A DNA stretch of 64,000 nt from Patescibacteria group bacterium (GTDB lineage Bacteria > Patescibacteriota > Minisyncoccia > Minisyncoccales > Staskawiczbacteraceae). Made by a program: the position numbers and the translations under genes. Where the stretch lies: positions 157,537 through 221,536 of the forward strand of contig JAHJTG010000016.1 in assembly GCA_018829965.1 (NCBI GenBank), given 5' to 3'. The notes under the pieces are model-generated. The model was not told the DNA's origin and ran no database searches. It saw only the letters and a program-made list of their open reading frames with translations. Positions 3,337 to 47,198 of the stretch are shown here, in pieces; positions within the stretch are counted from its first letter, which is position 1, and every line of letters begins with the position of its first letter.

Positions 3337-3959
3337 TATTTCTTTTTCAATATAATTTTTTTAATTATCGTAAAGATTGTCTGAAAAAATATTCCGGCGT
3401 CAATAAAAAGCGAATTATTCTTAGCATATTTCACTCTTAGTTTATTCTTTTGAGGTTCAATCTTTTCTCGGTACGACTTATCTACATTTTCTTCATCTAT
3501 AAAATCTTCTTGATTTATATAATATATACTAGCATAATCTGTCATTCCCGGACTAACATTGAGAATTATTTTTTCCTCTTCGGTGTAAAGATCTACATAA
3601 TATTTAACTTGTGGACGAGGCCCAACAAAACTCATCTCTCCATTCAAAACATTAATCAACTGAGGGAGCTCATCAAGTTTAGATCTTCTTAAAAACTTTC
3701 CTATCTTTGTTATCCGGGGATCATTACGAGAAGCGTGTATCGTTCCTATTTTTTCAGCATTCGGAACCATTGTCCTAAATTTATAAATTTTGAAAATTTT
3801 GCCAAACTTACCGACTCTTTCTCCTTTATAAAAAACAGGACCTTTAGAATCTAATTTAACCAATAACCTGATAACAATTAGGAGGGGCGATAATAATATC
3901 AATCCCAATAAAGCAAAGATAAAATCAAGAATTCTTTTCAATACTAATTGGAATTTCAT
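3336..3959 (-). CDS. Initiating phosphoglycosyl transferase (bacterial sugar transferase, small PglC-like type)
   Basis: 207 aa with one N-terminal hydrophobic helix. Motifs YKFRTM and DELPQLINVLNGEMSFVGPRP. TAATG stop/start overlap with the capD-like gene. Confidence 0.9.
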   Translation of the reverse strand: MKFQLVLKRILDFIFALLGLILLSPLLIVIRLLVKLDSKGPVFYKGERVGKFGKIFKIYKFRTMVPNAEKIGTIHASRNDPRITKIGKFLRRSKLDELPQLINVLNGEMSFVGPRPQVKYYVDLYTEEEKIILNVSPGMTDYASIYYINQEDFIDEENVDKSYREKIEPQKNKLRVKYAKNNSLFIDAGIFFQTIFTIIKKIILKKK

Positions 3960-15970: not shown

Positions 15971-16789
15971 TTAAAAAATTCCTCTTCTTAAAAAATATTT
16001 ATTGATAAAAATTTTTAAAAAAGGCGGACAGGCTAAAGAAAGGTAATCTCTTAAGAGATAGACATAGCAAATTATTGGATAATCTTTGCTTTTTATCACT
16101 CTTTTTTTAAGCAAAATTGCTTGTTTTATCTGTTCCTTGTTCCTTTTAGAGGATATCATTTCCGGCTGATATTTTTTTTTCACTAAAAATAGTGGTAAGT
16201 TTTCTCCTTTGGCAACTTTTAAGATTCTAAACCATAATTCATAATCCTGGATAACTTTAAAATCTTCATTATACTTCCCTACTTTGTTTATGATTTCTTT
16301 CCTTATCATAACCGAAGTATGAATAAAAGGATTTCTTCTAATAAGGACATTCTTTATATCTTGATGAGAGACGGGCAAAGTTTCTTCCCTTAAAATTTTC
16401 CCTTCTTGGTTTATCGCATAACCGAATGTTCCTAAAACCTTAATTTCGAGATGATCTTCCAAAAAAACAACCTGCTTTTCCAATCTTTGAGGCAAAGAAA
16501 TGTCGTCAGCATCCTGGCGGGCAATATATTTACCTTGTACCACATCTATCGCCTTATTAAGAGATTTTGTTAAGCCGATATTAGAGGGGTTGCTAATTAT
16601 TTTAATCCGGCTGTCTTTCTTTTCCCAATTGGTTAAAATTTCTTCAGTTTTATCCGTAGAGCCATCATTAACAATAATAAATTCAAAATTCTTGAAGGTC
16701 TGCTCTAAAATATTTTTAATCGCCTCTCCAACATATTGCTGGCCGTTAAAAACCGCCATTATTACTGAAACTTTTGGATTAATATTCAT
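15971..16789 (-). CDS. Glycosyltransferase family 2
   Basis: VSVIMAVFNGQQYVGEAIKNILEQTFKNFEFIIVNDGSTDKT and ARQDADDIS (DxD). Confidence 0.85.
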   Translation of the reverse strand: MNINPKVSVIMAVFNGQQYVGEAIKNILEQTFKNFEFIIVNDGSTDKTEEILTNWEKKDSRIKIISNPSNIGLTKSLNKAIDVVQGKYIARQDADDISLPQRLEKQVVFLEDHLEIKVLGTFGYAINQEGKILREETLPVSHQDIKNVLIRRNPFIHTSVMIRKEIINKVGKYNEDFKVIQDYELWFRILKVAKGENLPLFLVKKKYQPEMISSKRNKEQIKQAILLKKRVIKSKDYPIICYVYLLRDYLSLACPPFLKIFINKYFLRRGIF

Positions 16790-18657
16790 AATATTTCTAT
16801 TTTTTTAAGCCAAAACTCAAACATAATTAATTTATCAATTAAATATATCTCCCAGTTTTTTAATCTTTTTGGGTCTTTTTCTAAAATTTTAGAAACAAAC
16901 TCTTCATTTAAGAAATCCTTCCACAAACATTTTTCGCCATTAAGTAATATCTTTTTTACTAATTCTGAATTATCAACTAAAACCTGCCTCCCATTAACTG
17001 CCTTCATATTTATCGGTTTTATTATTTCTTTTCGGAATATTTTAAAAAGAATTGAAGAAACATAATTTTTTGTCTTAAGCAAGTTAACCCAAATCTTCGT
17101 AAAAATACTTTCATTTCCAAAAAGTTCTAAAGTGTTTCTAGGAACAGATGAAGCTATTGGCAATTTCTCCTTGATATATTTTTTAATTATTGATTCGTTG
17201 AACCTATAAGATAGTGGTAATTTATATATAAAATCCTGGAAATCATAATCGAGATAAGGCGAATGTATTTGTACGTAATCCTTAGCAGCTAAGCTTGTAA
17301 TACCACAATGGCGTCTTTCAAAATCTAGGACACTTATAACGTCGAAGGTATTAACAAATGAAGGCTGTTCGTATTTTTTTACTAAATTTAAAAAAGTTTC
17401 TTTTGATAAATCAATATAGGGATGTAATTTCTCTTTGAAAAATTGTTTTTGGATCTTATGCGGGATTATCCTATTCCATTTATTAAATAAAATTTCAGAA
17501 AAAGTTGTAATATCTATAGCATTTTTAAATTCTTCCTCAATATCTTTTCCAAAACTGCAATCGCCAAATTCCCCCGAGAAAACATCTTTAATTCCTTTCC
17601 TTCGAACTTCTTCATAAAAGGGGACGAATCGAAAATCAAAACCGCTATATTCTGGTCCTATACTCGCTAAACCCTTCTCCAAGCAGGACTTGTAACCTAT
17701 ACGGATAAATTCATGAACTATACCATACAAATTAGCTAACCGCTTGCTAAATAAAGAATCTAGATTATCTTCACTCATTCCATAATTAAATGAACGTAAA
17801 ACAAACTTATTTTCTCCTTTTAACTTTTCGAGGATATCTAAAATTATTCGGGAGTCTAGCCCTCCACTCAAACCTATACCAATATCTTTTTGGTTTCTTG
17901 AGATTTTCCTCTCGACTGCTTTTTTAATCTTTTCATCCAACCCTTCAATAGCCTCTTTTTCTGTCATATCTCTCTTTTCTTTGAATTGAGGTTGCCAATA
18001 ATTTGTTAAGCTGATTTCATCATCTGAGTATTTTAATATCGACGCCGGAGAAAACAAAGAAATCTCTTTAATCATTGTTTTCGCACCAAATAAATGTTGG
18101 AAGGTGAAATGCTCTATTATTGCCTCTTCATTAACTGTATTTTTTAGGTTTTCAATTTTTTGCTTAATCTCAATTAATCCTTTCAACTCTGATGAAAATA
18201 TAATTCCGTCTGAAATTTTCCTATAATAAATGGGCCTTAAACCATATCTATCATTTCCTATAATAAGACTGTTCCTCTCTTTATCGTAAATAAAAAATGA
18301 AAATAATCCGTTTATAGACGGTATGAAAGATTCGAGCTTGCCTAGCTTATAGGCTTCTATGATTTTTTTAGAAAGTATATCACTTGAATCATTAATATTT
18401 ATTTCAATCTGAGTCCCTGTTTCAAAATCCCTATACCCTACGGCTTGTCCATAGAAACTTACAATTATGCCTTTATCAATTAATAAAGGATAAAAAATTT
18501 CCTCTAGATCCACTTTTCCGAAGCCGTAGTTTTCATAATAATCAATAGAAGATTTCTGCCAATCTTTGTGAACCAAAGAGGCGCTCAAAAACTCTGTTAG
18601 TTCCCTTATTTTCTCCTTATTTGTATTAAATTTTATAATTCCTGTTATCCCTGGCAT
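16786..18657 (-). CDS. Asparagine synthetase B-like amidotransferase (PP-loop) lacking the N-terminal Cys nucleophile
   Basis: 623 aa. IGLSGGLDSRIIL is the SGGLDS PP-loop. The N-terminus is MPGITGI instead of the canonical MCGI. Confidence 0.75.
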   Translation of the reverse strand: MPGITGIIKFNTNKEKIRELTEFLSASLVHKDWQKSSIDYYENYGFGKVDLEEIFYPLLIDKGIIVSFYGQAVGYRDFETGTQIEININDSSDILSKKIIEAYKLGKLESFIPSINGLFSFFIYDKERNSLIIGNDRYGLRPIYYRKISDGIIFSSELKGLIEIKQKIENLKNTVNEEAIIEHFTFQHLFGAKTMIKEISLFSPASILKYSDDEISLTNYWQPQFKEKRDMTEKEAIEGLDEKIKKAVERKISRNQKDIGIGLSGGLDSRIILDILEKLKGENKFVLRSFNYGMSEDNLDSLFSKRLANLYGIVHEFIRIGYKSCLEKGLASIGPEYSGFDFRFVPFYEEVRRKGIKDVFSGEFGDCSFGKDIEEEFKNAIDITTFSEILFNKWNRIIPHKIQKQFFKEKLHPYIDLSKETFLNLVKKYEQPSFVNTFDVISVLDFERRHCGITSLAAKDYVQIHSPYLDYDFQDFIYKLPLSYRFNESIIKKYIKEKLPIASSVPRNTLELFGNESIFTKIWVNLLKTKNYVSSILFKIFRKEIIKPINMKAVNGRQVLVDNSELVKKILLNGEKCLWKDFLNEEFVSKILEKDPKRLKNWEIYLIDKLIMFEFWLKKIEIL

Positions 18658-18662: not shown

Positions 18663-19802
18663 TTATAGATAAAAGCGGCTTAATATTTTTTCACACCTTT
18701 TTTTCCGATCGTATGTTTTAATTTTTTCATAGGCATTATTAGTTAGTTTTTCTGCTAATTGTTTATCTTCTAAAACCATTCTTACAAAACGACTTAATTC
18801 CTGAATATTATTAGGTTCGGCCAATAACCCATCAATATTATGGGTGATAATTCTTGAAATCGCAGGGATATTTGTAGAAATAATGGGCTTCTTTGTAGCC
18901 ATATATTCAAACAATTTTAAAGGGGAGGTCGTACTAATATCCATTCTCTCTATTTTTTGGTCAGTTTTATAGGGCATTATTAAAGCATCGGCTACCTGTA
19001 AAAACAAAGGAGCTTTGTTTCTTTCTATAAACTTTACAAATTGAACATTTTCAATTTTGTGAGAATTAGTAAAATCTTTCCAAAATTTTATCTGAGAATC
19101 CTGCCCACCTGCAAGCAAAAAATCAACATCGGGAATGTTTTTAGCAACTAATAATATATGCTCTATTCCTTTATCGGGAAAAAGAGAACCACAATAAACA
19201 ACGATTTTTTTATCCTTTACCAAATTAAATATTTTTCTGCACTCGTCTTTGTTTGGCAGGTTTTGAAAATCTTCAATATCAACCCCATTTTGTAATACTA
19301 ATATTTTATTTTCCGGAAAACCGGTCTTAATAAAACTCTGTTTTACTACGTCTGAAACAGTCGCAAGTCCTTTAAGGTATTTAGAATGACTTAATTTAAT
19401 TACCTTCTTCAGATCAGGGTGTTTAACATTTGTCGTATGCGATTCTAAAATAGTAGGTATCCCGTTTTTTATATTGTAATAAACGACTCTATAAGCTCTA
19501 CAATAACAAATATCTATGTTATTTTTTTTGCAATATTGGCTAATTCTTTTTTCAGGGTCGAAAAAATACCTTCTAAAATATAATATTTTTATTTTTTCGT
19601 TAACTCCGTAAAAATTATGAACATTTTTTATCTTCTTTCTATTCCTTCTTTCTAAAAATCTTTCCACTGTTAAAACCTCGACTTCGTAACCCAACTTGAA
19701 AAAAGCGTTCGCCGTCTTCATCACGTTTATACTGTGCGCCCATTGCGACGGAATATGACCTGAAGTAACTACTGCTATTTTTATTTTATCTCTTGGTATC
19801 AT
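18663..19802 (-). CDS. Glycosyltransferase family 4 (GT-B)
   Basis: 379 aa. The C-terminal KLFEYMATKKPIISTNIPAISRIITHNIDGLL matches the GT4 E-x7-E region. Confidence 0.8.
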   Translation of the reverse strand: MIPRDKIKIAVVTSGHIPSQWAHSINVMKTANAFFKLGYEVEVLTVERFLERRNRKKIKNVHNFYGVNEKIKILYFRRYFFDPEKRISQYCKKNNIDICYCRAYRVVYYNIKNGIPTILESHTTNVKHPDLKKVIKLSHSKYLKGLATVSDVVKQSFIKTGFPENKILVLQNGVDIEDFQNLPNKDECRKIFNLVKDKKIVVYCGSLFPDKGIEHILLVAKNIPDVDFLLAGGQDSQIKFWKDFTNSHKIENVQFVKFIERNKAPLFLQVADALIMPYKTDQKIERMDISTTSPLKLFEYMATKKPIISTNIPAISRIITHNIDGLLAEPNNIQELSRFVRMVLEDKQLAEKLTNNAYEKIKTYDRKKRCEKILSRFYL

Positions 19803-19809: not shown

Positions 19810-20775
19810 TTACTTATTTTCAGCCACGGTCAAACCCATGCTATTATTGTAATCAATTTTGCCTTTCAAAATTTTAAAATTCTTCTCTATAAAGCTTAAC
19901 ACTTCCTTTCTTTCAATTTGCCCTTTTTTCGTATCTAATCCTATGCAATCTCTCTTATCATAATCAAAGATTAGCACTCCCCCTTTTTCTAAATGTTGAT
20001 GCAATATTTTAACAATCTCTACAGGATTAGTTAAAAACTCAAACACAGTGCGGCATATTATTACATTATATTTTGCACCCGAAGGTAAATTATCTTTTAT
20101 AGCCGGGCCTATTGTTATAAAGTTTATGTAATTTTTATTGGCAAATTTCCATCTCGCATAAAAGAAATTAATTTGTTTAATATCCACTATCGTGAATTTT
20201 AGATTTTTATAAGAACAGTATCTAATAAGCCCTTCGGTGATTGGCGCAATTCCGCAGCCGTACTCTAATATAGAAGAATTATTCGAAATATATTTAAGGA
20301 ATGGATAAAAACCTAAGTAAGCTAATTTGGTATATCTCCAGACAGCATTAAAAACCATAAAAATACACCCTATGGCTTGCCATCTTTTAACAAACTCTTT
20401 TGCGTTTCGTTCATTTGTATGAACGACTTCTTGAAATTTTGCACGATAACTACCGCGAAGAAAATGGAAATCAAATATATCTATAGGCCTATTTCCTAAA
20501 TAATCTACCCAAAAATCTTTAAATGAGCTAAACCATTTGGTCGATAAATTCGAAAAAAGAAATTTTTCTAGAACATTTGTCCTTTCAAGAATCCCCATAT
20601 AATACATTTTCAATAAATTAAAAATCCTTGAAATAAACCTTATCTTATATTCCTTCCTTGTTGAAGAATTTTTGTCAAATTTATGGACTGTACTTAGCCA
20701 TAAATCCTGCTCTTTAAATTTTTGATCTATATTTATATATACTCTGTTAAATTTATTATAATTTTCTTCTCTCAT
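19810..20775 (-). CDS. Class I SAM methyltransferase (paralog 1 of tandem pair)
   Basis: LEYGCGIAPIT (motif I), GGVLIFDY, C-terminal ILKGKIDYNNSMGLTV. Colinear with the next gene. Confidence 0.7.
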   Translation of the reverse strand: MREENYNKFNRVYINIDQKFKEQDLWLSTVHKFDKNSSTRKEYKIRFISRIFNLLKMYYMGILERTNVLEKFLFSNLSTKWFSSFKDFWVDYLGNRPIDIFDFHFLRGSYRAKFQEVVHTNERNAKEFVKRWQAIGCIFMVFNAVWRYTKLAYLGFYPFLKYISNNSSILEYGCGIAPITEGLIRYCSYKNLKFTIVDIKQINFFYARWKFANKNYINFITIGPAIKDNLPSGAKYNVIICRTVFEFLTNPVEIVKILHQHLEKGGVLIFDYDKRDCIGLDTKKGQIERKEVLSFIEKNFKILKGKIDYNNSMGLTVAENK

Positions 20776-20776
20776 A

Positions 20777-21694
20777 TTATTTTTTTATCTTTTTAACAAC
20801 ACACAACCCTACGCTTTTTCCAAAGTCGATTTTCCCTTTTATCAATTGGAAATTATTTTTGATAAATTTAAGCACCTCTTCCCTTTCATCTAGGGATTGC
20901 CTACTGTCTAATCCTATTCTTTCAATATTTGTTTTTATATAATCAAAGACCAATACTCCCCCTTCTTTAAGTCCGCTATAAAAACTTTTAACAACTTTCA
21001 GGGGGTTAGGCACATGTTCTAGTACTGTTTGACAAATAATAGCAGAGTAATAATTATCTTTATCTACTAAATTATTATACGGCTCTAATATCCGGTATTT
21101 AACATTTGGCAAATTTGATAAATTATAAATTGCGTATAAAAAATTTATTTGCAAAATATCGACTATTTCAAAATCATATTTTTTTGAAGGGAAATATTTT
21201 AGAATACCTGTTGTAAACGGAGCAACAGCGCAACCATATTCTAAGACCTTCCCTTTTCTAGGCAACTGGAAATAAAATCTTAAGAAATCTAGGTAAGCCG
21301 ATTTGGCGTATCTCCAAGTGGCGTTAAATAGCTGAGAAATATTTTCATCAGATTGCCAGGCTTTTAAGAAATCTGAATTATTTGATTCATTAAAGTGCTT
21401 GGCGCTTTGGAATCTACCTCTGTAAGAAAATCTTAAAAGATGGAAGTCCATAATATCAATCGGCCTTCCATTAAGTATTTCTTGCCAAAAACATTTAAAA
21501 TTTTTAAACCAACTTGTTAATAAAAAAGAATAAACAAATTCCTTTGAAATCTTTAATACATGAATCGCGCCATTAAGTATCATGCTAATTTTTGGAAAAA
21601 CTGGCCGCAACAACTTATGCTTATCGCTTGCTAAAACTTTGCTTTTAAATTTATCTATATCCAATTTTAAATTGTCGTAATAGTTATTTTCCAT
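20777..21694 (-). CDS. Class I SAM methyltransferase (paralog 2 of tandem pair)
   Basis: LEYGCAVAPFT, GGVLVFDY, LIKGKIDFGKSVGLCV. Also shares WFxxFKxFWxxxLNGRPIDIxDFHxLRxSYR with 19810-20775. Confidence 0.7.
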   Translation of the reverse strand: MENNYYDNLKLDIDKFKSKVLASDKHKLLRPVFPKISMILNGAIHVLKISKEFVYSFLLTSWFKNFKCFWQEILNGRPIDIMDFHLLRFSYRGRFQSAKHFNESNNSDFLKAWQSDENISQLFNATWRYAKSAYLDFLRFYFQLPRKGKVLEYGCAVAPFTTGILKYFPSKKYDFEIVDILQINFLYAIYNLSNLPNVKYRILEPYNNLVDKDNYYSAIICQTVLEHVPNPLKVVKSFYSGLKEGGVLVFDYIKTNIERIGLDSRQSLDEREEVLKFIKNNFQLIKGKIDFGKSVGLCVVKKIKK

Positions 21695-21700: not shown

Positions 21701-22813
21701 TTACTGCATCAATGATTTAAATAATCGCATATATTTTTCTCCCATAATTTCTTTTGTATGATATTGTTTTACTAAATCCACGCATCGTTTTTTGAATAAA
21801 TATAGATGATTGATAACTTCCTTAAGAGAATAAATCGGATTCCGCTCATCAATAAGTATGCCTCCATGAATGTCTTCCTTTAAAAGCAACTCCGGCGAAC
21901 CGCCGCTATTTGTGGCTATAACAGGCATGCCACAACTCATTGCTTCTAGAATAACGTTCGGAGAACAATCGTTAATTGTGGGATAAAGCAATACATCGCC
22001 ACTTCGATAAAGAGAAGCTAATTCATATCTATCGTTAGTATGGTTCAAACAATGAACATTAGGAAATTTTTTTATTTCATATCCGTAAACTGGATCATCA
22101 ATCTGCCTTCCAATCAGATAAAATTGAATTTCTGGATTATTCTTCAGTAAATGAGCGAATTCCAATACAGTGCCCAATCCTTTACGAGCCATGCCGCTGG
22201 TAGACACATGAAAAATCTTATATTTTCCTTTTAGGTCTTTTTTAGGACCATTTTCACTAAAAATATCCCTATCCACGCCGTTGTAAATAATAGTACCGTT
22301 TTTTATATTCATCGGCCCCTCAAAGCCAAAAATTGATTTCACCCCGCGAACATATAAAGATTTACAATATTCTGTCTGAAAAACTGTGGCATCCGCTCTT
22401 TTATTAATCCAAGACACGGTTTCATCACAGCCATATACCTTACATAATATTCGATAACGGTCGTCCAGCCTATGCACTACTTTCGCTTTTGGATTTTTTT
22501 TAATCAGTCTTGCGAAACGCTTTTCGTAATCAGTATTTGATTTTGAATATCTATTATAATCAATTTCCTGAAAGAACCGACCTCTATTTAAAAAATTTGC
22601 GACTTTCCTTTTAATGATTCCCGTTAATGACCTATCTGTATAATGCGACCCGCCACTGATAATAAATAAAATATCAAAGCGATCTTCTTCACCTACCAAT
22701 TCGATATCTTTCTGATTTTTTAAGAAATCGAAAAGATATTGAGGAAAACTTAAACCTTTAAACTCTTTATTATCGGAAACAGGATAATCGATAAATACTT
22801 TTATTTTGTTCAT
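21701..22813 (-). CDS. Glycosyltransferase family 4
   Basis: PTINDCSPNVILEAMSCGMPVIATNSGGSPELL. Start placed at the internal Met (MNKIKVF, 22813); the track start at 22843 overlaps the upstream stop by 22 nt. Confidence 0.8.
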   Translation of the reverse strand: MNKIKVFIDYPVSDNKEFKGLSFPQYLFDFLKNQKDIELVGEEDRFDILFIISGGSHYTDRSLTGIIKRKVANFLNRGRFFQEIDYNRYSKSNTDYEKRFARLIKKNPKAKVVHRLDDRYRILCKVYGCDETVSWINKRADATVFQTEYCKSLYVRGVKSIFGFEGPMNIKNGTIIYNGVDRDIFSENGPKKDLKGKYKIFHVSTSGMARKGLGTVLEFAHLLKNNPEIQFYLIGRQIDDPVYGYEIKKFPNVHCLNHTNDRYELASLYRSGDVLLYPTINDCSPNVILEAMSCGMPVIATNSGGSPELLLKEDIHGGILIDERNPIYSLKEVINHLYLFKKRCVDLVKQYHTKEIMGEKYMRLFKSLMQ

Positions 22814-22821: not shown

Positions 22822-23457
22822 TTATTTTATAACAACACTCCAAATTTCGCCGAATTGGACACTATAACTACAAATTTTAAACCCCGCCTTTTTTAGTTCT
22901 TTTTGAAAAGACTCTAAGGTGTATTCCGTAAAATGGCCCCTATCTAACATCCATTCCAATCCTAATTCTTTTTTATACAAAGTTATCCAATCCCTGTTTA
23001 TCATCGGCACTCTTATCAAAAACTTATCTGCCTTACTTTTTAAAACTTTTAAAAATTTGGCTCTGTTTTTAATATGTTCCAACACATTTGACAGAATAAT
23101 AACATCGAATTTTTTTCCTGGAAAATTTTCTAAAATATCCCCTTGAACATATTCTATATTTTTTCTGGAAAACATTTCTTTGGCGAATCTTATATTTTCT
23201 TCATCTAAATCAATCCCGATGACTTTTTTGGCCTTTTTGGCAACATCAAAAGTCAAAGCGCCGTTACCGCATCCAATATCTAAAACCGTATCTCTAGGAT
23301 TGATATTATCTATGAAAAATTTATGATAATTCATCAAACGGTGCTTAGGATGCAATCCTTGCTCAATTTTATTAGAAAAAAAGCTACTTAACTTATAAGA
23401 AAAGCTATGCAATCTTAACGCTGATTTAATTACAATTTTATAAATCTTTGTTTTCAT
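22822..23457 (-). CDS. Class I SAM methyltransferase
   Basis: VLDIGCGNGALTFDVAKKAKKVIGIDLD and FDVIILSNVLEHI. Confidence 0.8.
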   Translation of the reverse strand: MKTKIYKIVIKSALRLHSFSYKLSSFFSNKIEQGLHPKHRLMNYHKFFIDNINPRDTVLDIGCGNGALTFDVAKKAKKVIGIDLDEENIRFAKEMFSRKNIEYVQGDILENFPGKKFDVIILSNVLEHIKNRAKFLKVLKSKADKFLIRVPMINRDWITLYKKELGLEWMLDRGHFTEYTLESFQKELKKAGFKICSYSVQFGEIWSVVIK

Positions 23458-24145
23458 TTTTAATCACTAATATATAAAATGACGAAAAAATAGGAAGAAA
23501 GCGGTCAAATTTATTAGCAGTATTAAGAAGTTTAGGATAAATATTTGATTTCCGTAGCTTATTATTCTTTAAAATGATTTCGGGAATTGTTATAAAAAAC
23601 AAATGTAGGAAAAAAGAAAATAACCCTCCTATCCTATATACTTTAAACTTATCCCCAAATATTTTTTTAAAACGAACCGGCGTATATCTTCTATATCCAT
23701 GACGGAGATAAAGGAATACTGACCAAAAAGTAGGAATGATGTGTATTTGAATCCCTCCTTTTTCTAAAAATTCACGGGCTTTTGAAACAGCTAAAACGTC
23801 TTTATCTATATGCTCCAGGGCTGAAATGGAAAAAACAAGGTTATATTTATTATTTGTATTAAAATCTTCTATTTTTATCTTGATAAAATCGGACTTTACG
23901 GCGTATTTGTTAAACTGTTCAAAATTCTTATTTTTTTCAATATCTACCCCAGTGTAAAATAACTTGTAACCTAAATCGTAAAAAATCTTTCTGATGTATC
24001 CTGAACCACAGCCAATATCCAACATTTTAACCTCTTTGCTGGGCAATATTTTAAGCAGATTATCATATAAAAATCTATTCGAATATACTCTCCCGGGAGA
24101 ATCATTCACCTCTTCTATTTTTTCAGGACGCCAATATTTTATCAT
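23438..24145 (-). CDS. Class I SAM methyltransferase
   Basis: MLDIGCGSGYIRK, GVDIE and LVFSISALEHID. Confidence 0.75.
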   Translation of the reverse strand: MIKYWRPEKIEEVNDSPGRVYSNRFLYDNLLKILPSKEVKMLDIGCGSGYIRKIFYDLGYKLFYTGVDIEKNKNFEQFNKYAVKSDFIKIKIEDFNTNNKYNLVFSISALEHIDKDVLAVSKAREFLEKGGIQIHIIPTFWSVFLYLRHGYRRYTPVRFKKIFGDKFKVYRIGGLFSFFLHLFFITIPEIILKNNKLRKSNIYPKLLNTANKFDRFLPIFSSFYILVIKNENKDL

Positions 24146-24172
24146 ACTATTTTATAATTTCATTTGTTCTTT

Positions 24173-24973
24173 TTAACTTCTAAAAAATCTATTAACAAAA
24201 CCCTTGATCATCCTGTTCCCACCATTTCCAATATAATTATCCATCTCTAAAAAATCTGGTTGCGATCCCCAACTTTTAGGCCAATGGTTGTGTTGATACA
24301 ATCCATCAAATCGATCTGTTTTAATAAGAGCTAACCATTTTTTATGTTTATAATAGAAACTCTCGAAATCTTTTAATGCTTCTTTATGCCCTGCTAAATA
24401 TTGCTCCTCATAATCAAAGCTATCTTCCCAGAAATAATTTAGAGCAGATTGCCCTATTTCATCAATAAGCCACCGTCTGTTCTGATAAAGTAAGGGGGTT
24501 TTCATCTTAAACACAAGTTTTGCATCAATAATTTCAACAAACCATCTATGATGGAAATAACCTTGCAATTTATTCGATTTTGAATGCTCACTAACACCTA
24601 TTTTACTTTCAGCTGCGCGAGTTGGAGTTGAAATATATCCCGCTTTCGATACTCTTTGAATTTCTTTACAAATTGCGATAGGGTCGCGCAGATCTTCTAA
24701 AGTGTCCGTGCATAAAGAGAAATCAAAAAATTTATCTTCAAAGGGCCATGGAAGTTCATAGAAATCTCTTGAAACCCATGTCTCTCTAGAAAAATGCTCT
24801 TCCCCTCCCACCTTTTCGTCAATATCTGTTTTTCCAACTCTTTTATCAAATGCTCTTTTATCTAAGATATAATTTGCTCTGAACCATGGATATCTTCCTC
24901 CCCCAATATCTATTACAATATCATCTTTCTTCAATCTACTCAGTATTAAATTAGAAATTTTTCCGTTTATCAT
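24173..24973 (-). CDS. Class I SAM methyltransferase-like protein
   Basis: VIDIGGGRYPW glycine loop and FDFSLCTDTLEDLRDPIAICKEIQRVSKAGYIS. Confidence 0.6.
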   Translation of the reverse strand: MINGKISNLILSRLKKDDIVIDIGGGRYPWFRANYILDKRAFDKRVGKTDIDEKVGGEEHFSRETWVSRDFYELPWPFEDKFFDFSLCTDTLEDLRDPIAICKEIQRVSKAGYISTPTRAAESKIGVSEHSKSNKLQGYFHHRWFVEIIDAKLVFKMKTPLLYQNRRWLIDEIGQSALNYFWEDSFDYEEQYLAGHKEALKDFESFYYKHKKWLALIKTDRFDGLYQHNHWPKSWGSQPDFLEMDNYIGNGGNRMIKGFVNRFFRS

Positions 24974-25765
24974 TTAAGTTCTTTTTTTTAAAACCAATAG
25001 AATACTGTGGCCAGCTATTTTTGATAGGAAAAACGAGTTTAAAAATTTTATTCCTTTAGCTAAAAGATTGTGGCTGTCGTACACTTTTTGTAAAATCGGT
25101 TTGAGCAAAAAGATTTCATCTTTCAATCCTTTAGTAGCATCAAATGGTTTCTTAAAAATCAGCTTAAATCCGTGTTTTTCAACATTTTTTGCAACTTCTT
25201 TTTCGTTTAAGATAAAACAATAAAAATTGTTGTTTATATCGTTATCTAATTTTTTATAGATTCCTAGTTTTGCTTTTAATCTCCGAAGAAAAAACATATG
25301 AGGAAAAGTTAAAAATAAGTATCCGTTAGTTTTTATTACTCTTTTTGCCTCCTCTATGATTTTTTCGTACCCGCCGGTAAAGTGTTCTATCACTCCTAGG
25401 GACCAATAGCCATCGAAAAAATTATCGGGAAAATCTAAACTTCTGACATCCTGAAAGGAAACTTTTAAATCAGGGAGGTTTTCGTTTATCTTCTTAACGG
25501 TTTCTTCGGCGAAATCAACGCCATAAGCATCATATCCCCAATGCTTTAACCCGTAAACAATTTGTCCTCTACCACAACCTCCTTCTAATACCCTTGCCCC
25601 GTGTTTTAAAAACTTATTTGTATTTTTTTTAACGAACCAACTGTTTTTTCCTTTTTCTATCTCTTTTTTAAAGTTTTTTGCCTCCCAATGCCTATCCCAA
25701 AATTTATTTGTTGCTTTTTCTTCAATAACTATCAATCTTTTATTGTCTTTATCGTAAAATTTCAT
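24974..25765 (-). CDS. Class I SAM methyltransferase
   Basis: VLEGGCGRGQIVYGL, AYGVDF and FDGYWSLGVIEHF. Confidence 0.8.
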   Translation of the reverse strand: MKFYDKDNKRLIVIEEKATNKFWDRHWEAKNFKKEIEKGKNSWFVKKNTNKFLKHGARVLEGGCGRGQIVYGLKHWGYDAYGVDFAEETVKKINENLPDLKVSFQDVRSLDFPDNFFDGYWSLGVIEHFTGGYEKIIEEAKRVIKTNGYLFLTFPHMFFLRRLKAKLGIYKKLDNDINNNFYCFILNEKEVAKNVEKHGFKLIFKKPFDATKGLKDEIFLLKPILQKVYDSHNLLAKGIKFLNSFFLSKIAGHSILLVLKKRT

Positions 25766-25768
25766 ACT

Positions 25769-26440
25769 TCAAGAAGATTTTCTTATTAAAAACCACGTAG
25801 TTCCATTAAACCAATTAAGCGCTTTTTTTCTATTAAATCCACTCAAGATAAGCTTTAATAGTTTTTTAAAATTCCCTTGAAAATCAATCGTATAAATTAT
25901 CTTTAAAATTTTACATTTATTCTTCTCAGATCGGTATCTAACAAAATCAACAGATTCTTCATTATTAAAAAACCATCTATGCCTATCTTTCGGCCTCTCT
26001 AGGGGTAATCCGTAAAACTTCAAATATTTCCCGAATTCCTTTTGTTTTTCTGTAACGATAGAATACTTTTTCCCAAGCAAAATAGTAAATATTCCTAAAA
26101 AAGGGTTGGGCAAGCTAATAATAATGTATTTTTTACTTATCCTACATAATTCATCAAAAACAAAATGAATATTTTCTAAATGTTCTAACACATCCGCGCA
26201 AAATACTAAATCAAAATTATTTTTTTTAAACGGCAATCCTTCTTTTTTATCCAAATCGAAAGAAATATCTGGCTTACCAAAATTATCTATACCAACATAT
26301 TTAATTTTTTTTGAAAGAATTTTTTCTAAATGTTTTTCGTCGCAACCAATATCTAAGACGCTACCTATTTCTTTAAAAATGGAGTCGAATTGATGAACTA
26401 TCCATTTTGCTTTTTCTTCACGATTTTTATAAGGTTCCAT
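25769..26440 (-). CDS. Class I SAM methyltransferase-like protein
   Basis: VLDIGCDEKHLEK, YVGIDN and FDLVFCADVLEHLEN. Confidence 0.65.
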   Translation of the reverse strand: MEPYKNREEKAKWIVHQFDSIFKEIGSVLDIGCDEKHLEKILSKKIKYVGIDNFGKPDISFDLDKKEGLPFKKNNFDLVFCADVLEHLENIHFVFDELCRISKKYIIISLPNPFLGIFTILLGKKYSIVTEKQKEFGKYLKFYGLPLERPKDRHRWFFNNEESVDFVRYRSEKNKCKILKIIYTIDFQGNFKKLLKLILSGFNRKKALNWFNGTTWFLIRKSS

Positions 26441-27542
26441 ATATATTTATTTCCTTTTCCATTATTTTTAAGAAATCGAAGTTTTTTAAAATATCTTGCC
26501 GGGCATTTTTGCCAATTTTCTCCTGAAGTTCCTTATCCTTTAGAACTTCGACGATTGCTTTTTTTATTGACTCAACACTAATATCGCAAAGATAACCATT
26601 TTCTCTATGACGGATAATTTCCTTTATCCCCTCAACATTTGTCCCGATGCAGGGCAAACCACAGCTCATTGCCTCTAATAAGGTTTTTGGGCACCCTTCA
26701 TATAATGAGGGGAGAATAAAAATCTCCGATCTATTCAACTCTTCTGGCAGTTTATTGTTCGGAATATTTTCCCGAAATTCTATATTTGCTCTCTTTTTTC
26801 TCGCAACCACCTTTATCTTCTCTTTTAAACATCCTGACCCGATAATCGCTAATTTACACGAGTTTCCCGAGATTGCTTCAATTAAATTAAAAAGGTTCTT
26901 TTGTTCATGCAGTCTTCCGATAAAGATAACTTTTGATTTATCTTTTTCTATTTTTAAAGGTTTAAATAATTCGGTGTCAATATAATTAGGGATGAATTCT
27001 ATTTTAAAAAAAGGGACTTTAAAATTATTTTTGACGAACCTCTTATCTTTTTCTGAAGTTAGAATAATCCTATCAGCATTTTTATAAGCAAGCTTTTCGA
27101 TATTAAATACAAGTGCTTTTTTCCAAAACGGTTTTTTTTCCTTCCTTAAAAATTCTAACCACTCATAGCCACACCTAATTATTAATTTCTTTTTATACAA
27201 CCATTTTGAAAGAATCGCCGGGATAACAGCTGCCATCTGATTTGTCTTATAAACATCAGCTCCCCTGAGCTCTTTATAATAAATTAAGGGAATAAAAAAT
27301 TGGTAAATTCTTGAAGGGAAGAAAGCAGGTTTTGATAAGATTCTAATATTCGTTGATAGTTTTTCTTGAAAATTAAACTCTTTCTTATTTCCATAAGTAA
27401 TAAAATATATTTTTTTAAAATATTTTGCTAATTCATTATAGGGCTTAATTTCCCTCTCCAAATTTCCGATTTTTTCCCATATTTTTAAAGAAACTCCACA
27501 GGTAAAAAATAAAGCTAATTTTTTGTCTTTTAAGTTTTCCAT
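26427..27542 (-). CDS. Glycosyltransferase family 4
   Basis: PSLYEGCPKTLLEAMSCGLPCIGTNVEGIKEIIRHRENGYL. Confidence 0.85.
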   Translation of the reverse strand: MENLKDKKLALFFTCGVSLKIWEKIGNLEREIKPYNELAKYFKKIYFITYGNKKEFNFQEKLSTNIRILSKPAFFPSRIYQFFIPLIYYKELRGADVYKTNQMAAVIPAILSKWLYKKKLIIRCGYEWLEFLRKEKKPFWKKALVFNIEKLAYKNADRIILTSEKDKRFVKNNFKVPFFKIEFIPNYIDTELFKPLKIEKDKSKVIFIGRLHEQKNLFNLIEAISGNSCKLAIIGSGCLKEKIKVVARKKRANIEFRENIPNNKLPEELNRSEIFILPSLYEGCPKTLLEAMSCGLPCIGTNVEGIKEIIRHRENGYLCDISVESIKKAIVEVLKDKELQEKIGKNARQDILKNFDFLKIMEKEINIYGTL

Positions 27543-28462: not shown

Positions 28463-29383
28463 TTATTTTTTAATTAAATTATGATTTTCAAACCATTCTT
28501 TAGTTTTTCCAACTCCAGTAGCAAAATCTGTCTTAGGCTGCCAATTCAAAAGCTTTTTAGCTAAGTTGATGTCTGCCTGGGTATGGAGAGGGTCACCTAA
28601 CCTTGGGGGCAGATATTGAACCGAACCGCCGATTAATTTGCTTAAATAATTGATCGAATAAGATTTCTTCTGCCCAATATTTATTATTTCTCCTCCTTTT
28701 ATCTTTTTGCTTTCCGCTGCTTTTATATTTGCATCTACTACATCATCTATATAGCAAAATGCCCTAGTCTGTTCCCCATCTCCAAAAATTGTTAATGGCT
28801 TATTCTGAACCCTTAATCTTAAAAATTTTCCCAAAACTAAACTATAATCAGAATCGAAATCAATTCTTGGCCCATAGACATTAAAATATCTTAAACAAAC
28901 TATCGGAACCTTATATAGCCCAACAAATAGTTTTGCAGTTTGCTCTCCAACAAACTTCTGTAGCCCATATGGGCTAAGAGGATTAGGAATCATATTCTCT
29001 TTTAGAGGAAACTTCTTTTGATCCCCATATATAGAAGAAGAGGAGGCGAAAATAATTCTTTTAACCCCTTCATCAATCGCCGCTTTAAAAACATTAATCG
29101 TACCCAAAATATTCACTTGAGATGTACCGACTGGATCCTTAATCGAAATCGGCACTCTCGGAATAGCAGCTAAGTGTAAAACATAGTCAACTCCTTGAAA
29201 GCAGGGCTTGATTTTGTTAAAATCACGAATATCTAATTGATAAAACTCTACCTTAGGATTCAAGTTTTCCTTCTTCCCAGTTGAAAGATTATCAATAACC
29301 ACTACTTGGTGGTTTTGTTTTATTAACTTATCAACGAGATGGCTGCCTATGAATCCAGCTCCGCCAGTAATTAAGTATTTCAT
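28463..29383 (-). CDS. NAD-dependent NDP-sugar epimerase/dehydratase (extended SDR)
   Basis: ITGGAGFIGSHL and the YGLQK (YxxxK) motif; 306 aa. Confidence 0.85.
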   Translation of the reverse strand: MKYLITGGAGFIGSHLVDKLIKQNHQVVVIDNLSTGKKENLNPKVEFYQLDIRDFNKIKPCFQGVDYVLHLAAIPRVPISIKDPVGTSQVNILGTINVFKAAIDEGVKRIIFASSSSIYGDQKKFPLKENMIPNPLSPYGLQKFVGEQTAKLFVGLYKVPIVCLRYFNVYGPRIDFDSDYSLVLGKFLRLRVQNKPLTIFGDGEQTRAFCYIDDVVDANIKAAESKKIKGGEIINIGQKKSYSINYLSKLIGGSVQYLPPRLGDPLHTQADINLAKKLLNWQPKTDFATGVGKTKEWFENHNLIKK

Positions 29384-37562: not shown

Positions 37563-37576
37563 AAAAATATAGCCAA

Positions 37577-47101: not shown

Positions 47102-47186
47102 AATTATAAACGAGGGAGGAATGAAAAAATTTGTTTTTGCATTCCGACCGAGTGATTGATTATATAAATGGCTTTGTCATTTCTAT
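47102..47186 (-). promoter_or_regulatory. Conserved leader element, copy C (abuts ATG of wzt)
   Basis: Gene-sense sequence: ATAGAAATGACAAAGCCATTTATATAATCAATCACTCGGTCGGAATGCAAAAACAAATTTTTTCATTCCTCCCTCGTTTATAATT, then ATG. Hairpin 1 pairs 47166-47170 with 47178-47182. Hairpin 2 pairs 47118-47123 with 47140-47145, plus an inner A/T stem. TATATAAT lies at 47159-47166. Confidence 0.75.
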
Positions 47187-47198
47187 TTTTATTCGAAA

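What the first reader, a model, noticed from the sequence alone, without database searches (positions are those of the whole stretch)
22822..26440. Five SAM methyltransferase genes in a row, bracketed by GT4 genes
Genes 22822-23457, 23438-24145, 24173-24973, 24974-25765 and 25769-26440 each carry a class I SAM-binding glycine loop (DIGCGNG, DIGCGSG, DIGGGRY, EGGCGRG, DIGCDEK) and a downstream acidic/LEH motif. They are mutually divergent rather than recent duplicates, and most overlap or abut. With the two paralogs at 19810-21694, this gives seven methyltransferases in 6.6 kb, and ten in the locus. Such density predicts a polymethylated glycan (compare the mycobacterial methylglucose/methylmannose polysaccharides), or several alternative terminal caps.
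Basis: partly seen in the sequence, partly recalled or inferred. Interest (0 to 1): 0.6.

Follow-up and report, generated by a model that had tools for sequence, protein, structure and literature searches.

The report
Five tandem glycan methyltransferase genes
Five unrelated-looking methyltransferase genes sit side by side in a giant cell-surface sugar-chain gene cluster of an uncultured ultra-small (Patescibacteria) bacterium. They most likely add methyl groups to that sugar chain, which is a plausible but unproven and fairly ordinary kind of decoration.

Summary
Five adjacent minus-strand ORFs (25769-26440, 24974-25765, 24173-24973, 23438-24145, 22822-23457) all pass Pfam class I SAM-methyltransferase cut-offs. 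They share only 21-37% identity over the core, and GT4 genes flank them. The locus holds ten SAM methyltransferases in about 57 kb, in a Patescibacteria MAG.

The two least canonical enzymes, M3 and M5, give confident AlphaFold models that match only class I methyltransferases. Their odd glycine loops are conserved across their whole families.

Comparative loci show a modular cassette. An ortholog of the upstream GT4 (GT4a, 26427-27542) is followed by different subsets of the same methyltransferase families:
- M2-M1-M5-M3 in a Saccharibacteria MAG.
- M4-M1 in a metagenome contig.
- M4 alone in a Falkowbacteria MAG.
- M1, M5 and GT4a together in an Omnitrophota MAG.

The window carries the union of these sets.

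The surrounding genes include an initiating phosphoglycosyltransferase, Wzm/Wzt, about eight glycosyltransferases, a pseudaminic-acid-like pathway and an AsnB-like amidotransferase. This points to multi-site methylation of an exported, lipid-linked surface heteroglycan.

The mycobacterial MGLP/MMP analogy is not supported. The closest worked example is the Tannerella forsythia O-glycan cluster. No substrate has been shown. This is a new member of a known kind, of moderate interest.

The parts
26427..27542 (-). GT4a: GT4 glycosyltransferase directly upstream of the methyltransferase block. It is the conserved anchor of the cassette.
   Evidence: Pfam Glycos_transf_1 134.5 bits and Glyco_transf_4 39.6 bits. 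Orthologs at 54% (L004/L008), 56% (L171) and 45% (L172) identity, and at 273 bits (L173), each lie beside members of the same methyltransferase families.
25769..26440 (-). M5: class I SAM methyltransferase, 223 aa, with the non-canonical loop DIGCDEK.
   Evidence: Methyltransf_23 40.6 bits. Family alignment A2 has D30, G32, LEH85-87, LPN110-112 and DRHxWFF invariant or nearly so, and the loop variant is found across the family. AF2 pLDDT 89.8. Foldseek best hit 3cc8, E 5e-11, TMq 0.60. Orthologs in L008, L009, L010, L088 and L173.
24974..25765 (-). M4: class I SAM methyltransferase, 263 aa, loop EGGCGRG. It is the accessory member, absent from the closest cassettes.
   Evidence: Methyltransf_11 60.5 bits over profile positions 1-95 of 95. 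1237 homologs, aligned at full length in the 120 listed and 49-87% identical, in Patescibacteria, Asgard archaea and Scalindua. In three other contexts it sits immediately after a GT4 gene. No ortholog in L004, L006, L010 or L088.
24173..24973 (-). M3: divergent class I SAM methyltransferase, 266 aa, loop DIGGGRY, with a conserved C-terminal region carrying an HHRW motif.
   Evidence: Methyltransf_11 27.0 bits against a cut-off of 21.2. Family alignment A1 has D22, G24, G25, D38, PWP, TLED, RDP and HHRW invariant or nearly so. AF2 pLDDT 91.4, pTM 0.88. All top Foldseek hits are class I methyltransferases, but TMq is only 0.3-0.38. 287 relatives among 185,579 species genomes.
23438..24145 (-). 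M2: class I SAM methyltransferase, 235 aa, loop DIGCGSG, with a hydrophobic C-terminal segment.
   Evidence: Methyltransf_11 36.2 bits over profile positions 1-92 of 95. Orthologs at 70% (L004) and 46% (L006) identity. Hydrophobic stretch at residues 169-193.
22822..23457 (-). M1: class I SAM methyltransferase, 211 aa, loop DIGCGNG.
   Evidence: Methyltransf_23 70.1 bits and Methyltransf_11 66.4 bits. Orthologs at 67% (L004), 52% (L006) and 65% (L171) identity, and at 221 bits (L173).
21701..22813 (-). GT4b: GT4 glycosyltransferase directly downstream of the block. The likely ATG start is at 22813; the ORF opens at a TTG at 22843.
   Evidence: Glyco_trans_1_4 64 bits and Glycos_transf_1 59.7 bits. 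The public gene call is 370 aa and the start context is shown. Orthologs at 56% identity in L006 and 493 bits in L010, next to M3.
19810..21694 (-). P7 (20777-21694) and P6 (19810-20775): paralogous methyltransferases with an N-terminal extension of about 140 aa.
   Evidence: Methyltransf_23 49.9 and 41.7 bits. 42.6% identical over 282 aa. Small family: 398 cluster representatives at E<=1e-3 and 140 at E<=1e-10 among 1.84 billion, and many of the best matches extend into the N-terminal region.
18663..19802 (-). GT4c: third GT4 glycosyltransferase of the sub-cluster.
   Evidence: Glycos_transf_1 93.8 bits. Ortholog at 39% identity in L006.
16786..18657 (-). AsnB-like glutamine amidotransferase. 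It may make a sugar carboxamide; this is an inference.
   Evidence: GATase_7 and Asn_synthase. It recurs with the methyltransferase/GT4 sets in L006, L088, L173 and L174.
28463..29383 (-). SDR nucleotide-sugar epimerase, co-inherited with GT4a.
   Evidence: Epimerase 215.7 bits. Best NCBIfam matches are TviC and GalE, both below cut-off. Orthologs at 72% (L004), 48% (L171) and 45% (L006) identity.
45791..48017 (-). Wzm (47199-48017) and Wzt (45791-47101): ABC exporter for the lipid-linked glycan. Wzt has a C-terminal extension of about 180 aa.
   Evidence: ABC2_membrane and ABC_tran. Best PDB match is Aquifex aeolicus Wzt at 1e-65, over residues 35-253 only. Wzt_C 20.5 bits against a cut-off of 30.4, over residues 270-402.
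3336..6586 (-). Initiating phosphoglycosyltransferase (3336-3959), and a GT-C (PMT_2) domain fused to GT4 (3956-6586).
   Evidence: Bac_transf 206.8 bits; PMT_2 plus Glycos_transf_1. The N-terminal half holds multiple hydrophobic, predicted transmembrane segments.

Best explanation
The five genes encode five different, catalytically competent class I SAM-dependent methyltransferases. They decorate sugars of a polyprenol-linked cell-surface heteroglycan. That glycan is built in the cytoplasm by the neighbouring GT4 enzymes and then exported by the locus's Wzm/Wzt ABC transporter.

The block is a modular 'methylation cassette' anchored on the upstream glycosyltransferase GT4a and its partner epimerase. 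Different lineages carry different subsets of the same five methyltransferase families beside the GT4a ortholog. This genome carries the union, {M4, M1} plus {M2, M1, M5, M3}. Each enzyme probably has its own position or residue specificity, so the residue(s) installed around GT4a and GT4b end up methylated at several sites. One of these sites may be the non-reducing terminus.

Shown here:
- The enzyme family and fold.
- Intact cofactor motifs.
- Tight operon packing.
- Conserved co-occurrence with GT4a, GT4b, the epimerase and the exporters.

Inferred, not shown:
- That the substrate is a glycan.
- That the methylation is on oxygen rather than on nitrogen or a carboxyl group.
- Which sugar is modified.
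- Whether methylation happens on the nucleotide sugar or on the lipid-linked chain.
For: - Pfam class I methyltransferase hits above the gathering cut-off for all five.
- Motif I, the beta-2 Asp and the beta-4 FD..LEH motif align in all five.
- High-confidence AF2 models of the two least canonical enzymes match only class I methyltransferases, including the sugar O-methyltransferases AtmM and RebM and the EvdMO1 N-terminal domain solved with SAH and D-fucose.
- All genes lie on one strand with overlaps or gaps of 27 nt or less.
- M1, M3 and M5 orthologs co-occur in four of four close relatives, in shuffled order. M2 is present in two of four and M4 in none.
- GT4a orthologs are followed by M2-M1-M5-M3 in L008, by M4-M1 in L171 and by M4 in L172. 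In L173 (Omnitrophota) the GT4a ortholog lies 3' of M1 and M5 orthologs.
- L088 alternates GT4 and methyltransferase genes directly after Wzm/Wzt.
- Of 71 loci of at least 15 kb around M3-family genes from many phyla, 55 carry glycosyltransferase homologs and 12 carry strong Wzm/Wzt matches.
- The locus has an initiating phosphoglycosyltransferase, Wzm/Wzt and eight glycosyltransferases.
- Precedent: in the T. forsythia O-glycan cluster, cluster-encoded methyltransferases methylate specific glycan residues (PMC6120980).
Against: - No member of any of the five families has a demonstrated substrate.
- No NCBIfam equivalog reaches its cut-off, and PDB sequence neighbours are generic or act on non-sugar substrates.
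- SAM binding was judged only from motifs and fold. No cofactor was modelled, and M1, M2 and M4 were not modelled at all.
- Ortholog assignment rests on best-hit scores within 10 kb flanks, so an 'absence' may mean only that the gene lies elsewhere in that genome.
- A single terminal hexose has only four free hydroxyls, so five enzymes cannot all act on one residue unless some are redundant or act elsewhere.
- One relative (L009) links the cassette to a Wzx flippase rather than Wzm/Wzt. The export route is therefore not a fixed part of the module.
Confidence: 0.6

Rival explanations
1. Terminal-cap reading. The methyltransferases make one or several alternative methylated non-reducing-end caps. 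These stop chain growth and are read by the C-terminal domain of Wzt as the export signal, as in E. coli O8/O9a and the Geobacillus stearothermophilus S-layer glycan.
For: - Wzm/Wzt are present, and the Wzt nucleotide-binding domain is closest to O-antigen Wzt.
- Wzt has a C-terminal extension of about 180 aa. Its Wzt_C match spans profile positions 6-134 of 143 but scores only 20.5 bits.
- Wzt orthologs in L004 and L088 also carry weak Wzt_C matches next to the cassette.
Against: - The Wzt_C score is below the gathering cut-off of 30.4.
- None of the five has the kinase or coiled-coil domains of WbdD, or the glycosyltransferase fusion of WsaE.
- Five distinct enzymes are far more than a cap needs.
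- L009 carries the cassette with a Wzx flippase, where no cap signal is required.
- In P. aeruginosa CPA, small locus-encoded methyltransferases did not behave as WbdD-like terminators (PMC3560663).
Confidence: 0.15
2. Redundancy reading. Several of the five are redundant, conditionally expressed or non-catalytic partners. The glycan then carries far fewer methyl groups than there are genes, and the array reflects accretion by horizontal transfer rather than five separate functions.
For: - T. forsythia has three methyltransferases for two methyl groups. Loss of either MtfJ or MtfO removes the same 4-O-methyl group, although the two proteins share no significant sequence similarity (PMC6120980).
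- The P. aeruginosa methyltransferases PA5457 and PA5459 are partly redundant (PMC3560663).
- The window's set looks like a merger of two cassette types, and M4 is missing from the closest relatives.
Against: - All five keep their family-conserved cofactor and C-terminal motifs.
- M1, M3 and M5 are co-retained across lineages at 40-75% identity, which implies purifying selection on each.
- The sequence is identical in independent samples, with no frameshifts.
Confidence: 0.15
3. Mycobacterial-type polymethylated polysaccharide. This is the first reader's lead analogy: a cytoplasmic MGLP/MMP-like polymer in which most residues carry the same methyl ether.
For: A high number of methyltransferases next to GT4 enzymes.
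Against: - The locus encodes an initiating phosphoglycosyltransferase, an ABC exporter, a GT-C enzyme and eight different glycosyltransferases, which means an exported heteroglycan.
- Five mutually divergent families argue for different sites rather than one repeated site.
- No NCBIfam or PDB match to a mycobacterial polysaccharide methyltransferase appeared.
- From my own knowledge, MGLP/MMP systems use one or two methyltransferases acting repeatedly. This was not tested here.
Confidence: 0.03
4. Non-glycan substrates. Some or all of the five methylate a lipid carrier, a surface protein, or a small molecule or cofactor, and are merely co-located with glycan genes.
For: - Class I methyltransferases are promiscuous in substrate class.
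- The best sequence neighbours include UbiG, BioC, phosphoethanolamine N-methyltransferases and CFA synthase, all below cut-off.
- M2 has a hydrophobic C-terminal segment that could place it at the membrane.
Against: - The genes are packed tightly between glycosyltransferase genes.
- Synteny with GT4a, GT4b and the epimerase recurs across two phyla.
- 55 of 71 loci around M3-family genes are glycan loci.
Confidence: 0.07

Closest known systems
Tannerella forsythia general protein O-glycosylation gene cluster (MtfJ, MtfO, MtfY with GtfS/M/I/L/E)
   Same: - A polycistronic cluster that mixes several glycosyltransferases with several unrelated small methyltransferases, which methylate specific residues of a lipid-assembled surface glycan (PMC6120980).
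- That glycan contains a pseudaminic acid derivative and an aminuronamide.
- The window likewise encodes a pseudaminic-acid-like pathway (a PseB-like dehydratase, DegT, NeuB, a CMP-transferase and a TIGR03587 methylase) and an AsnB-like amidotransferase.
   Different: - Five adjacent methyltransferases, ten in the locus, against three.
- Different phylum.
- Export by Wzm/Wzt, an ABC transporter.
- No sequence orthology was tested or shown.
- The acceptor of the glycan (protein, wall or lipid) is unknown here.
ABC-transporter-dependent glycans with a methylated terminus (E. coli O8/O9a WbdD with Wzt-CBM; Geobacillus stearothermophilus WsaE 2-O-methyl cap)
   Same: - A Wzm/Wzt exporter, and a Wzt with a C-terminal extension.
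- A WbaP-type initiating transferase combined with Wzm/Wzt, as in the S-layer glycan clusters (PMC2943079).
- Methyltransferases encoded within the locus.
   Different: - The five enzymes are stand-alone proteins of 211-266 aa. They lack WbdD's kinase and coiled-coil domains and WsaE's glycosyltransferase fusion.
- There are far more methyltransferases than a cap needs.
- The Wzt_C match is below threshold.
Pseudomonas aeruginosa CPA locus methyltransferases PA5457/PA5459
   Same: Small, stand-alone putative methyltransferases that sit beside GT4-type glycosyltransferases in a Wzm/Wzt-dependent locus and show partial redundancy (PMC3560663).
   Different: - Two enzymes rather than five to ten.
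- An LPS O-antigen in a Gram-negative bacterium.
- Homology to the present enzymes was not tested.
Mycobacterial MGLP/MMP polymethylated polysaccharides
   Same: SAM-dependent O-methylation of a glycan made by GT4-type enzymes. This rests on my own knowledge and was not tested here.
   Different: - Those are cytoplasmic and not exported.
- They use one or two methyltransferases acting repeatedly.
- This locus has export machinery, many different glycosyltransferases and five divergent methyltransferase families.

Membership tests
Class I (Rossmann-fold) SAM-dependent methyltransferases | Profile match above the curated threshold. | tested here: met
   All five exceed the gathering score of at least one class I Pfam model. 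M3 is the weakest, at 27.0 bits against 21.2.
Class I (Rossmann-fold) SAM-dependent methyltransferases | Motif I (acidic residue plus glycine-rich loop), an acidic residue at the end of beta-2, and the beta-4 motif. | tested here: met
   The motifs align in register in all five. M5 lacks the second and third Gly (DIGCDEK). This holds across its whole family, where D30 and G32 are invariant. M3 has D22, G24, G25 and D38 conserved.
Class I (Rossmann-fold) SAM-dependent methyltransferases | Seven-stranded methyltransferase fold with a SAM pocket. | tested here: inconclusive
   The AF2 models of M3 (pLDDT 91.4) and M5 (89.8) hit only class I methyltransferases. For M3 only the core aligns (TMq 0.3-0.38). 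No cofactor was docked.
Capped ABC-transporter-dependent glycan systems (WbdD/Wzt-CBM type) | Wzm/Wzt exporter present. | tested here: met
   ABC2_membrane and ABC_tran. The best PDB match is A. aeolicus Wzt at 1e-65.
Capped ABC-transporter-dependent glycan systems (WbdD/Wzt-CBM type) | Wzt carries a C-terminal carbohydrate-binding module. | tested here: inconclusive
   An extension of about 180 aa. Wzt_C scores 20.5 bits against a cut-off of 30.4, over profile positions 6-134 of 143. The extension is not aligned to any PDB chain by sequence.
Capped ABC-transporter-dependent glycan systems (WbdD/Wzt-CBM type) | A terminator enzyme that joins a methyltransferase to kinase/coiled-coil domains (WbdD) or to a glycosyltransferase (WsaE). 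| tested here: not met
   M1-M5 are single-domain proteins of 211-266 aa. Pfam finds no second domain.
Mycobacterial polymethylated polysaccharide (MGLP/MMP) systems | Cytoplasmic product with no lipid-linked initiation or export genes. | tested here: not met
   Bac_transf initiating transferase, Wzm/Wzt and a GT-C enzyme lie in the same one-strand locus.
Mycobacterial polymethylated polysaccharide (MGLP/MMP) systems | Sequence homology of the methyltransferases to the MGLP/MMP enzymes. | not tested
No such name appeared among the NCBIfam or PDB hits.
TIGR03587 pseudaminic acid biosynthesis-associated methylase | Score above the curated cut-off of 112.05 bits. | tested here: not met
   Of the five, only M2 (20.2 bits) and M5 (20.6 bits) show weak hits. 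The separate gene at 53197-53868 does pass, at 158.6 bits.
Protein O-glycosylation clusters of the T. forsythia type | A polycistronic cluster with glycosyltransferases, several methyltransferases and a nonulosonic acid pathway. | tested here: met
   All genes lie on one strand. There are eight glycosyltransferases, ten methyltransferases, two NeuB genes, a CMP-transferase, a PseB-like gene and DegT.
Protein O-glycosylation clusters of the T. forsythia type | An oligosaccharyltransferase and a glycoprotein acceptor. | not testable with these tools
   The only candidate is the PMT_2 (GT-C) domain at 3956-6586. The acceptor is unknown.

The most novel reading that the evidence does not exclude
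The GT4a-anchored cassette may be a combinatorial 'methyl code'. Ultra-small episymbiotic bacteria (Patescibacteria, Omnitrophota) would mix and match up to five regiospecific methyltransferases to produce a heavily or fully O-methylated, hydrophobic sugar on their surface glycan. Variation in cassette content between lineages would then tune host attachment or evasion of phage and predators. The M3 and M5 families, which share an HRWF motif, would represent previously undescribed sugar O-methyltransferase families.
Probability: 0.15. Interest if true: 0.6.

Novelty: new member of a known kind. Interest (0 to 1): 0.4.

Why it matters
To my knowledge almost nothing is known experimentally about the cell-surface chemistry of Patescibacteria (CPR). 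The literature searches here found nothing on methylated glycans in these lineages. These bacteria live attached to host cells, so their surface glycans are likely to mediate the contact.

This genome has a contig of about 250 kb. It devotes about 57 kb to a single glycan operon, with ten SAM methyltransferases and three B12-dependent radical SAM enzymes.

If the cassette does produce a multiply methylated sugar, it gives three things:
- A defined, portable gene set (GT4a plus 1-5 methyltransferases) for testing how regiospecific glycan methylation is programmed.
- Several uncharacterised methyltransferase families with good structural models.
- A genomic marker for surface-glycan variation among uncultured lineages.

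If it does not, this is simply another decorated polysaccharide locus.

Tried and rejected
- PDB sequence searches for M1, M2, M4 and M5 returned only generic class I methyltransferases or enzymes acting on other substrates. They gave no substrate clue.
- NCBIfam gave no equivalog above cut-off for any of the five.
- The promoter and terminator scan of 18-30 kb was no better than shuffled sequence: 56 promoter-like sites against 55 expected, and 10 terminator-like sites against 6.5 expected. It says nothing about operon boundaries.
- The metagenome scan with the M3 profile added only two close relatives.
- Literature searches for methylated glycans or glycosylation in Patescibacteria, CPR or Saccharibacteria found nothing relevant.
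- The Rhizobium etli tri-O-methylfucose papers I recalled are not in the library. That comparison was therefore dropped from the evidence.
- tRNA and Rfam scans found nothing inside the block.
- The 483-aa ORF at 14517-15968 was considered as a membrane polymerase or ligase. This was rejected because it has no hydrophobic segments and no Pfam match.
- Recent tandem duplication was considered as the origin of the five and rejected, given at most 37% identity over the core only.

Full report
**What is in the sequence**

The window is AT-rich (about 33% G+C). Nearly all substantial ORFs lie on the minus strand.

From 58335 down to 1486 the genes form one almost gap-free glycan-biosynthesis locus of about 57 kb. 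Pfam assigns the following:
- A PseB/CapD-like dehydratase.
- Three B12-binding radical SAM enzymes, and three further radical SAM enzymes.
- Three DegT aminotransferases.
- Two NeuB homologs, one fused to a cupin domain.
- A CMP-sugar cytidylyltransferase, WbqC, PIG-L, and a TPP-dependent enzyme.
- Wzm and Wzt.
- Three GT2, four GT4 and one GT9 glycosyltransferases.
- PfkB kinase and cytidylyltransferase-HAD genes resembling those of heptose activation.
- An AsnB-like amidotransferase.
- A Bac_transf initiating phosphoglycosyltransferase.
- A PMT_2 (GT-C) domain fused to GT4.

The organism is a Patescibacteria (CPR) MAG. NCBI names the identical proteins '[Patescibacteria group bacterium]', on a contig of 249,967 bp. 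The same DNA was assembled at 99.97-100% identity from two other samples.

**Check of the observation**

The five ORFs are as described. I call them M5 (25769-26440), M4 (24974-25765), M3 (24173-24973), M2 (23438-24145) and M1 (22822-23457), in the order of transcription.

- Each passes the gathering threshold of at least one class I methyltransferase Pfam model. M3 is the weakest, at 27.0 bits against 21.2.
- The quoted loops are present. In a joint alignment, motif I, the Asp that ends beta-2 and the FD...(L/I)E(H/D) motif of beta-4 fall in the same columns.
- Pairwise similarity is confined to the core, at 21-37% identity. These are not recent duplicates. P6 and P7 (19810-21694) are real paralogs at 42.6% identity.
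- The genes overlap or are separated by at most 27 nt.
The downstream GT4 most likely starts at the ATG at 22813 rather than the TTG at 22843, which leaves an 8 nt gap after M1.
- The total of ten SAM methyltransferases in the locus is correct.
- A run of five among ten methyltransferases in 58 genes has p of about 0.003. Seven or more in eight genes has p of about 0.0002.

**Are the SAM pockets intact?**

M1, M2 and M4 have textbook loops and match the whole Methyltransf_11 or Methyltransf_23 profile.

*M3*
- Its family (38 aligned homologs) keeps V20, D22, G24, G25, P29, D38, D70, PWP, TLED and RDP.
- It also keeps a C-terminal GY-HHRW motif, invariant or nearly so.
- The AF2 model is confident (pLDDT 91.4, pTM 0.88).
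- All significant Foldseek PDB hits are class I methyltransferases. They include the sugar O-methyltransferases AtmM and RebM, and the EvdMO1 N-terminal domain solved with SAH and D-fucose.
- TMq is only 0.3-0.38, because only the core superposes.

*M5*
- Its unusual DIGCDEK loop is a trait of the whole family. D30 and G32 are invariant, and the later glycines are variable in all 37 sequences.
- LEH, LPN, GLP and DRHxWFF are invariant or nearly so.
- Its model (pLDDT 89.8) matches 3cc8 and 3l8d at TMq of about 0.6.

M3 and M5 share an 'HRWF' motif after the core. This suggests a common catalytic histidine, which is an inference. I could not dock SAM or read the coordinates, so 'intact pocket' rests on motif conservation and fold.

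**Comparative evidence: the cassette**

This is the most informative result. Loci encoding M3 homologs at 50% identity or more all carry M1 and M5 orthologs nearby, in shuffled order:

| Locus | Source | Gene order |
|---|---|---|
| L004/L005/L008/L091 | Saccharibacteria MAG and JGI contigs | Wzm-Wzt-Epi-GT4a-M2-M1-M5-M3 (65-75% identity) |
| L006/L009 | Patescibacteria MAG | GT4-GT4-M2-M5-M1-Wzx-M3-...-GT4b-MT-AsnB-GT4c-Epi |
| L010 | MAG labelled Gammaproteobacteria, 35% G+C | M5-M1-M3-GT4b next to Wzt/Wzm |
| L088 | Logan assembly SRR27205362 | Wzm-Wzt-M3-GT4b-MT-AsnB-MT-GT4c-M5-GT4a-M1-GT2 (GT4 and methyltransferase genes alternate) |

M2 is present in two of the four relatives and M4 in none.

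M4 belongs to a large family of about 265 aa. It has 1237 hits; the 120 listed align at full length with 49-87% identity. The family is found in several CPR lineages, Asgard archaea and Scalindua. In all three contexts I fetched, the M4 homolog lies immediately after a GT4 gene, overlapping or abutting it. In the two of those contexts for which DNA was available:
- L171 reads Epi(48%)-GT4a ortholog(56%)-M4(61%)-M1(65%).
- L172 (Falkowbacteria) reads GT4a ortholog(45%)-M4(50%).

An Omnitrophota MAG (L173) has M1 (221 bits), M5 (279 bits) and a GT4a ortholog (273 bits) together with two further methyltransferases and AsnB-like genes.

GT4a is therefore the recurring anchor, and the methyltransferase complement beside it varies from one to five. 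The window holds the largest set, formally the union of the {M4, M1} and {M2, M1, M5, M3} arrangements.

More broadly, the genome scan found 287 species genomes with an M3 relative. Of the 71 fetched loci of at least 15 kb around M3-family genes (from the genome and metagenome scans, many phyla), 55 contain glycosyltransferase homologs and 12 contain strong Wzm/Wzt matches.

**Mechanism**

The best-supported reading is a stepwise assembly line:
1. A polyprenol-linked heteroglycan is assembled on the cytoplasmic face. The initiating enzyme is the transferase at 3336-3959.
2. Eight glycosyltransferases extend the chain.
3. The five stand-alone methyltransferases decorate it at several positions, acting on the residues installed by GT4a and GT4b.
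4. Wzm/Wzt export the finished glycan. The Wzt nucleotide-binding domain is closest to Aquifex aeolicus Wzt (1e-65).
5. The glycan is transferred to an unknown acceptor, possibly by the GT-C domain at 3956-6586.

Five mutually divergent families argue for five specificities rather than one repeated reaction.

The nearby TviC/GalE-like epimerase, a truncated UDP-sugar dehydrogenase-like ORF and the AsnB-like amidotransferase hint at a uronic acid or uronamide residue. All of these score below the NCBIfam cut-offs, so this is only an inference.

A terminal-cap role for at least one methyl group is plausible, because Wzt has a C-terminal extension of about 180 aa. However, its Wzt_C match is sub-threshold (20.5 bits against 30.4). 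None of the enzymes has WbdD-like or WsaE-like extra domains. One relative also uses a Wzx flippase.

**Comparison with known systems**

- *T. forsythia.* The closest worked example is the 27-kb protein O-glycosylation cluster of T. forsythia. There, three unrelated methyltransferases sit among glycosyltransferases and methylate defined residues of a glycan that contains pseudaminic acid and a uronamide. Notably they produce only two methyl groups, because loss of either MtfJ or MtfO removes the same 4-O-methyl group (PMC6120980). This warns against equating gene count with methyl count.
- *S-layer and O-antigen caps.* The G. stearothermophilus S-layer glycan has a 2-O-methyl cap made by WsaE, with Wzt predicted to bind the capped chain (PMC2943079). 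The P. aeruginosa CPA locus has the partly redundant methyltransferases PA5457 and PA5459 (PMC3560663). These are the relevant precedents for the ABC-transporter pathway.
- *Mycobacterial MGLP/MMP.* This analogy is not supported. The present locus is built for export of a heteroglycan, and no similarity to those enzymes appeared in any search.
- *The ten methyltransferases are heterogeneous.* The gene at 53197-53868 is a TIGR03587 pseudaminic-acid-associated methylase (158.6 bits against 112). The gene at 6590-7450 is FkbM-type. P6 and P7 belong to a small family with a distinctive N-terminal extension (398 representatives at E<=1e-3 among 1.84 billion).

**Novelty and verdict**

Small methyltransferases inside polysaccharide or glycosylation loci are well known. 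Multi-methyltransferase loci also occur in Omnitrophota and Bacteroidales MAGs.

What is new here:
- The size of the array.
- Its placement in a CPR genome.
- The recognition of a GT4a-anchored, mix-and-match cassette.
- Two well-modelled but uncharacterised methyltransferase families (M3 and M5).

No substrate is demonstrated and nothing contradicts an ordinary decorating role. I classify it as a new member of a known kind, with interest about 0.4.

I found no literature on methylated glycans in Patescibacteria. A modest experimental follow-up would therefore break new ground.

Noticed in passing
window 61892-62033 (-) and 58666-61778 (-): A cobalamin riboswitch (RF00174, 39 bits against a gathering score of 31.5) sits directly upstream of three genes: a prenyltransferase/dockerin-like gene, DUF4430 (which I recall as transcobalamin-like; not tested here) and DUF6580. 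These look like a B12-uptake operon. It lies immediately next to a glycan locus that encodes three B12-binding radical SAM enzymes (55913-57334, 12008-13975, 10477-11937), which may be C-methylases..
   Followed up: partly
window 27548-28378 (-): The UDP-glucose/GDP-mannose dehydrogenase-like ORF is only 276 aa. It lacks the C-terminal UDP-binding domain and part of the N-terminal domain, whereas the related locus L171 has a full 433-aa version. It may be a remnant or a degenerate enzyme wedged between the epimerase and GT4a..
   Followed up: partly
window 3956-6586 (-): An 876-aa fusion joins a multi-spanning PMT_2 (GT-C) domain to a cytoplasmic GT4 domain. In the Saccharibacteria relative (L004) the two halves are separate genes. 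The GT-C domain is a candidate for the extracytoplasmic transfer step..
   Followed up: partly
window 7455-10540 (-): A Patescibacteria genome carries heptose-activation-like genes (a PfkB kinase and a cytidylyltransferase-HAD fusion) together with a GT9 heptosyltransferase-family gene. To my knowledge this lineage is not expected to make LPS..
   Followed up: no
window 35916-42457 (-): A TPP-dependent enzyme, a NeuB-cupin fusion and three consecutive radical SAM genes (one with a SPASM domain) lie near an NDP-sugar transferase and dehydratase pair (44053-45767). This looks like a pathway for an unusual branched or otherwise modified sugar..
   Followed up: no
window 19810-21694 (-): The paralogs P6 and P7 belong to a rare methyltransferase family of about 310 aa with a conserved N-terminal extension of about 140 aa and unknown function. 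Only 140 cluster representatives reach E<=1e-10 among 1.84 billion..
   Followed up: partly
window 24173-24973 and 25769-26440; alignments A1, A2: The M3 and M5 families are otherwise dissimilar, yet both carry a conserved motif after the Rossmann core (GY-HHRWF in M3, DRHRWFF in M5). It may be a shared catalytic histidine..
   Followed up: partly
L010 (CAZALZ010000003.1): A contig binned as 'uncultured Gammaproteobacteria' carries M5-M1-M3-GT4b and Wzt/Wzm orthologs of the Patescibacteria cassette, at 35% G+C. This is either mis-binning or horizontal transfer..
   Followed up: no
window 14517-15968 (-): A 483-aa ORF with no Pfam or NCBIfam match and no hydrophobic segments. It is conserved at the edge of the Saccharibacteria locus (41% identity over the 91 aa available). 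Its function in the glycan locus is unknown..
   Followed up: partly
L173 (Omnitrophota, GCA_030765235.1) and L174 (Bacteroidales, GCA_016927025.1): Other uncultured lineages also have three to six methyltransferases mixed with GT4 and AsnB-like genes, and in L174 with sulfotransferases. Dense methyltransferase content in glycan loci is therefore a wider, unstudied theme..
   Followed up: partly
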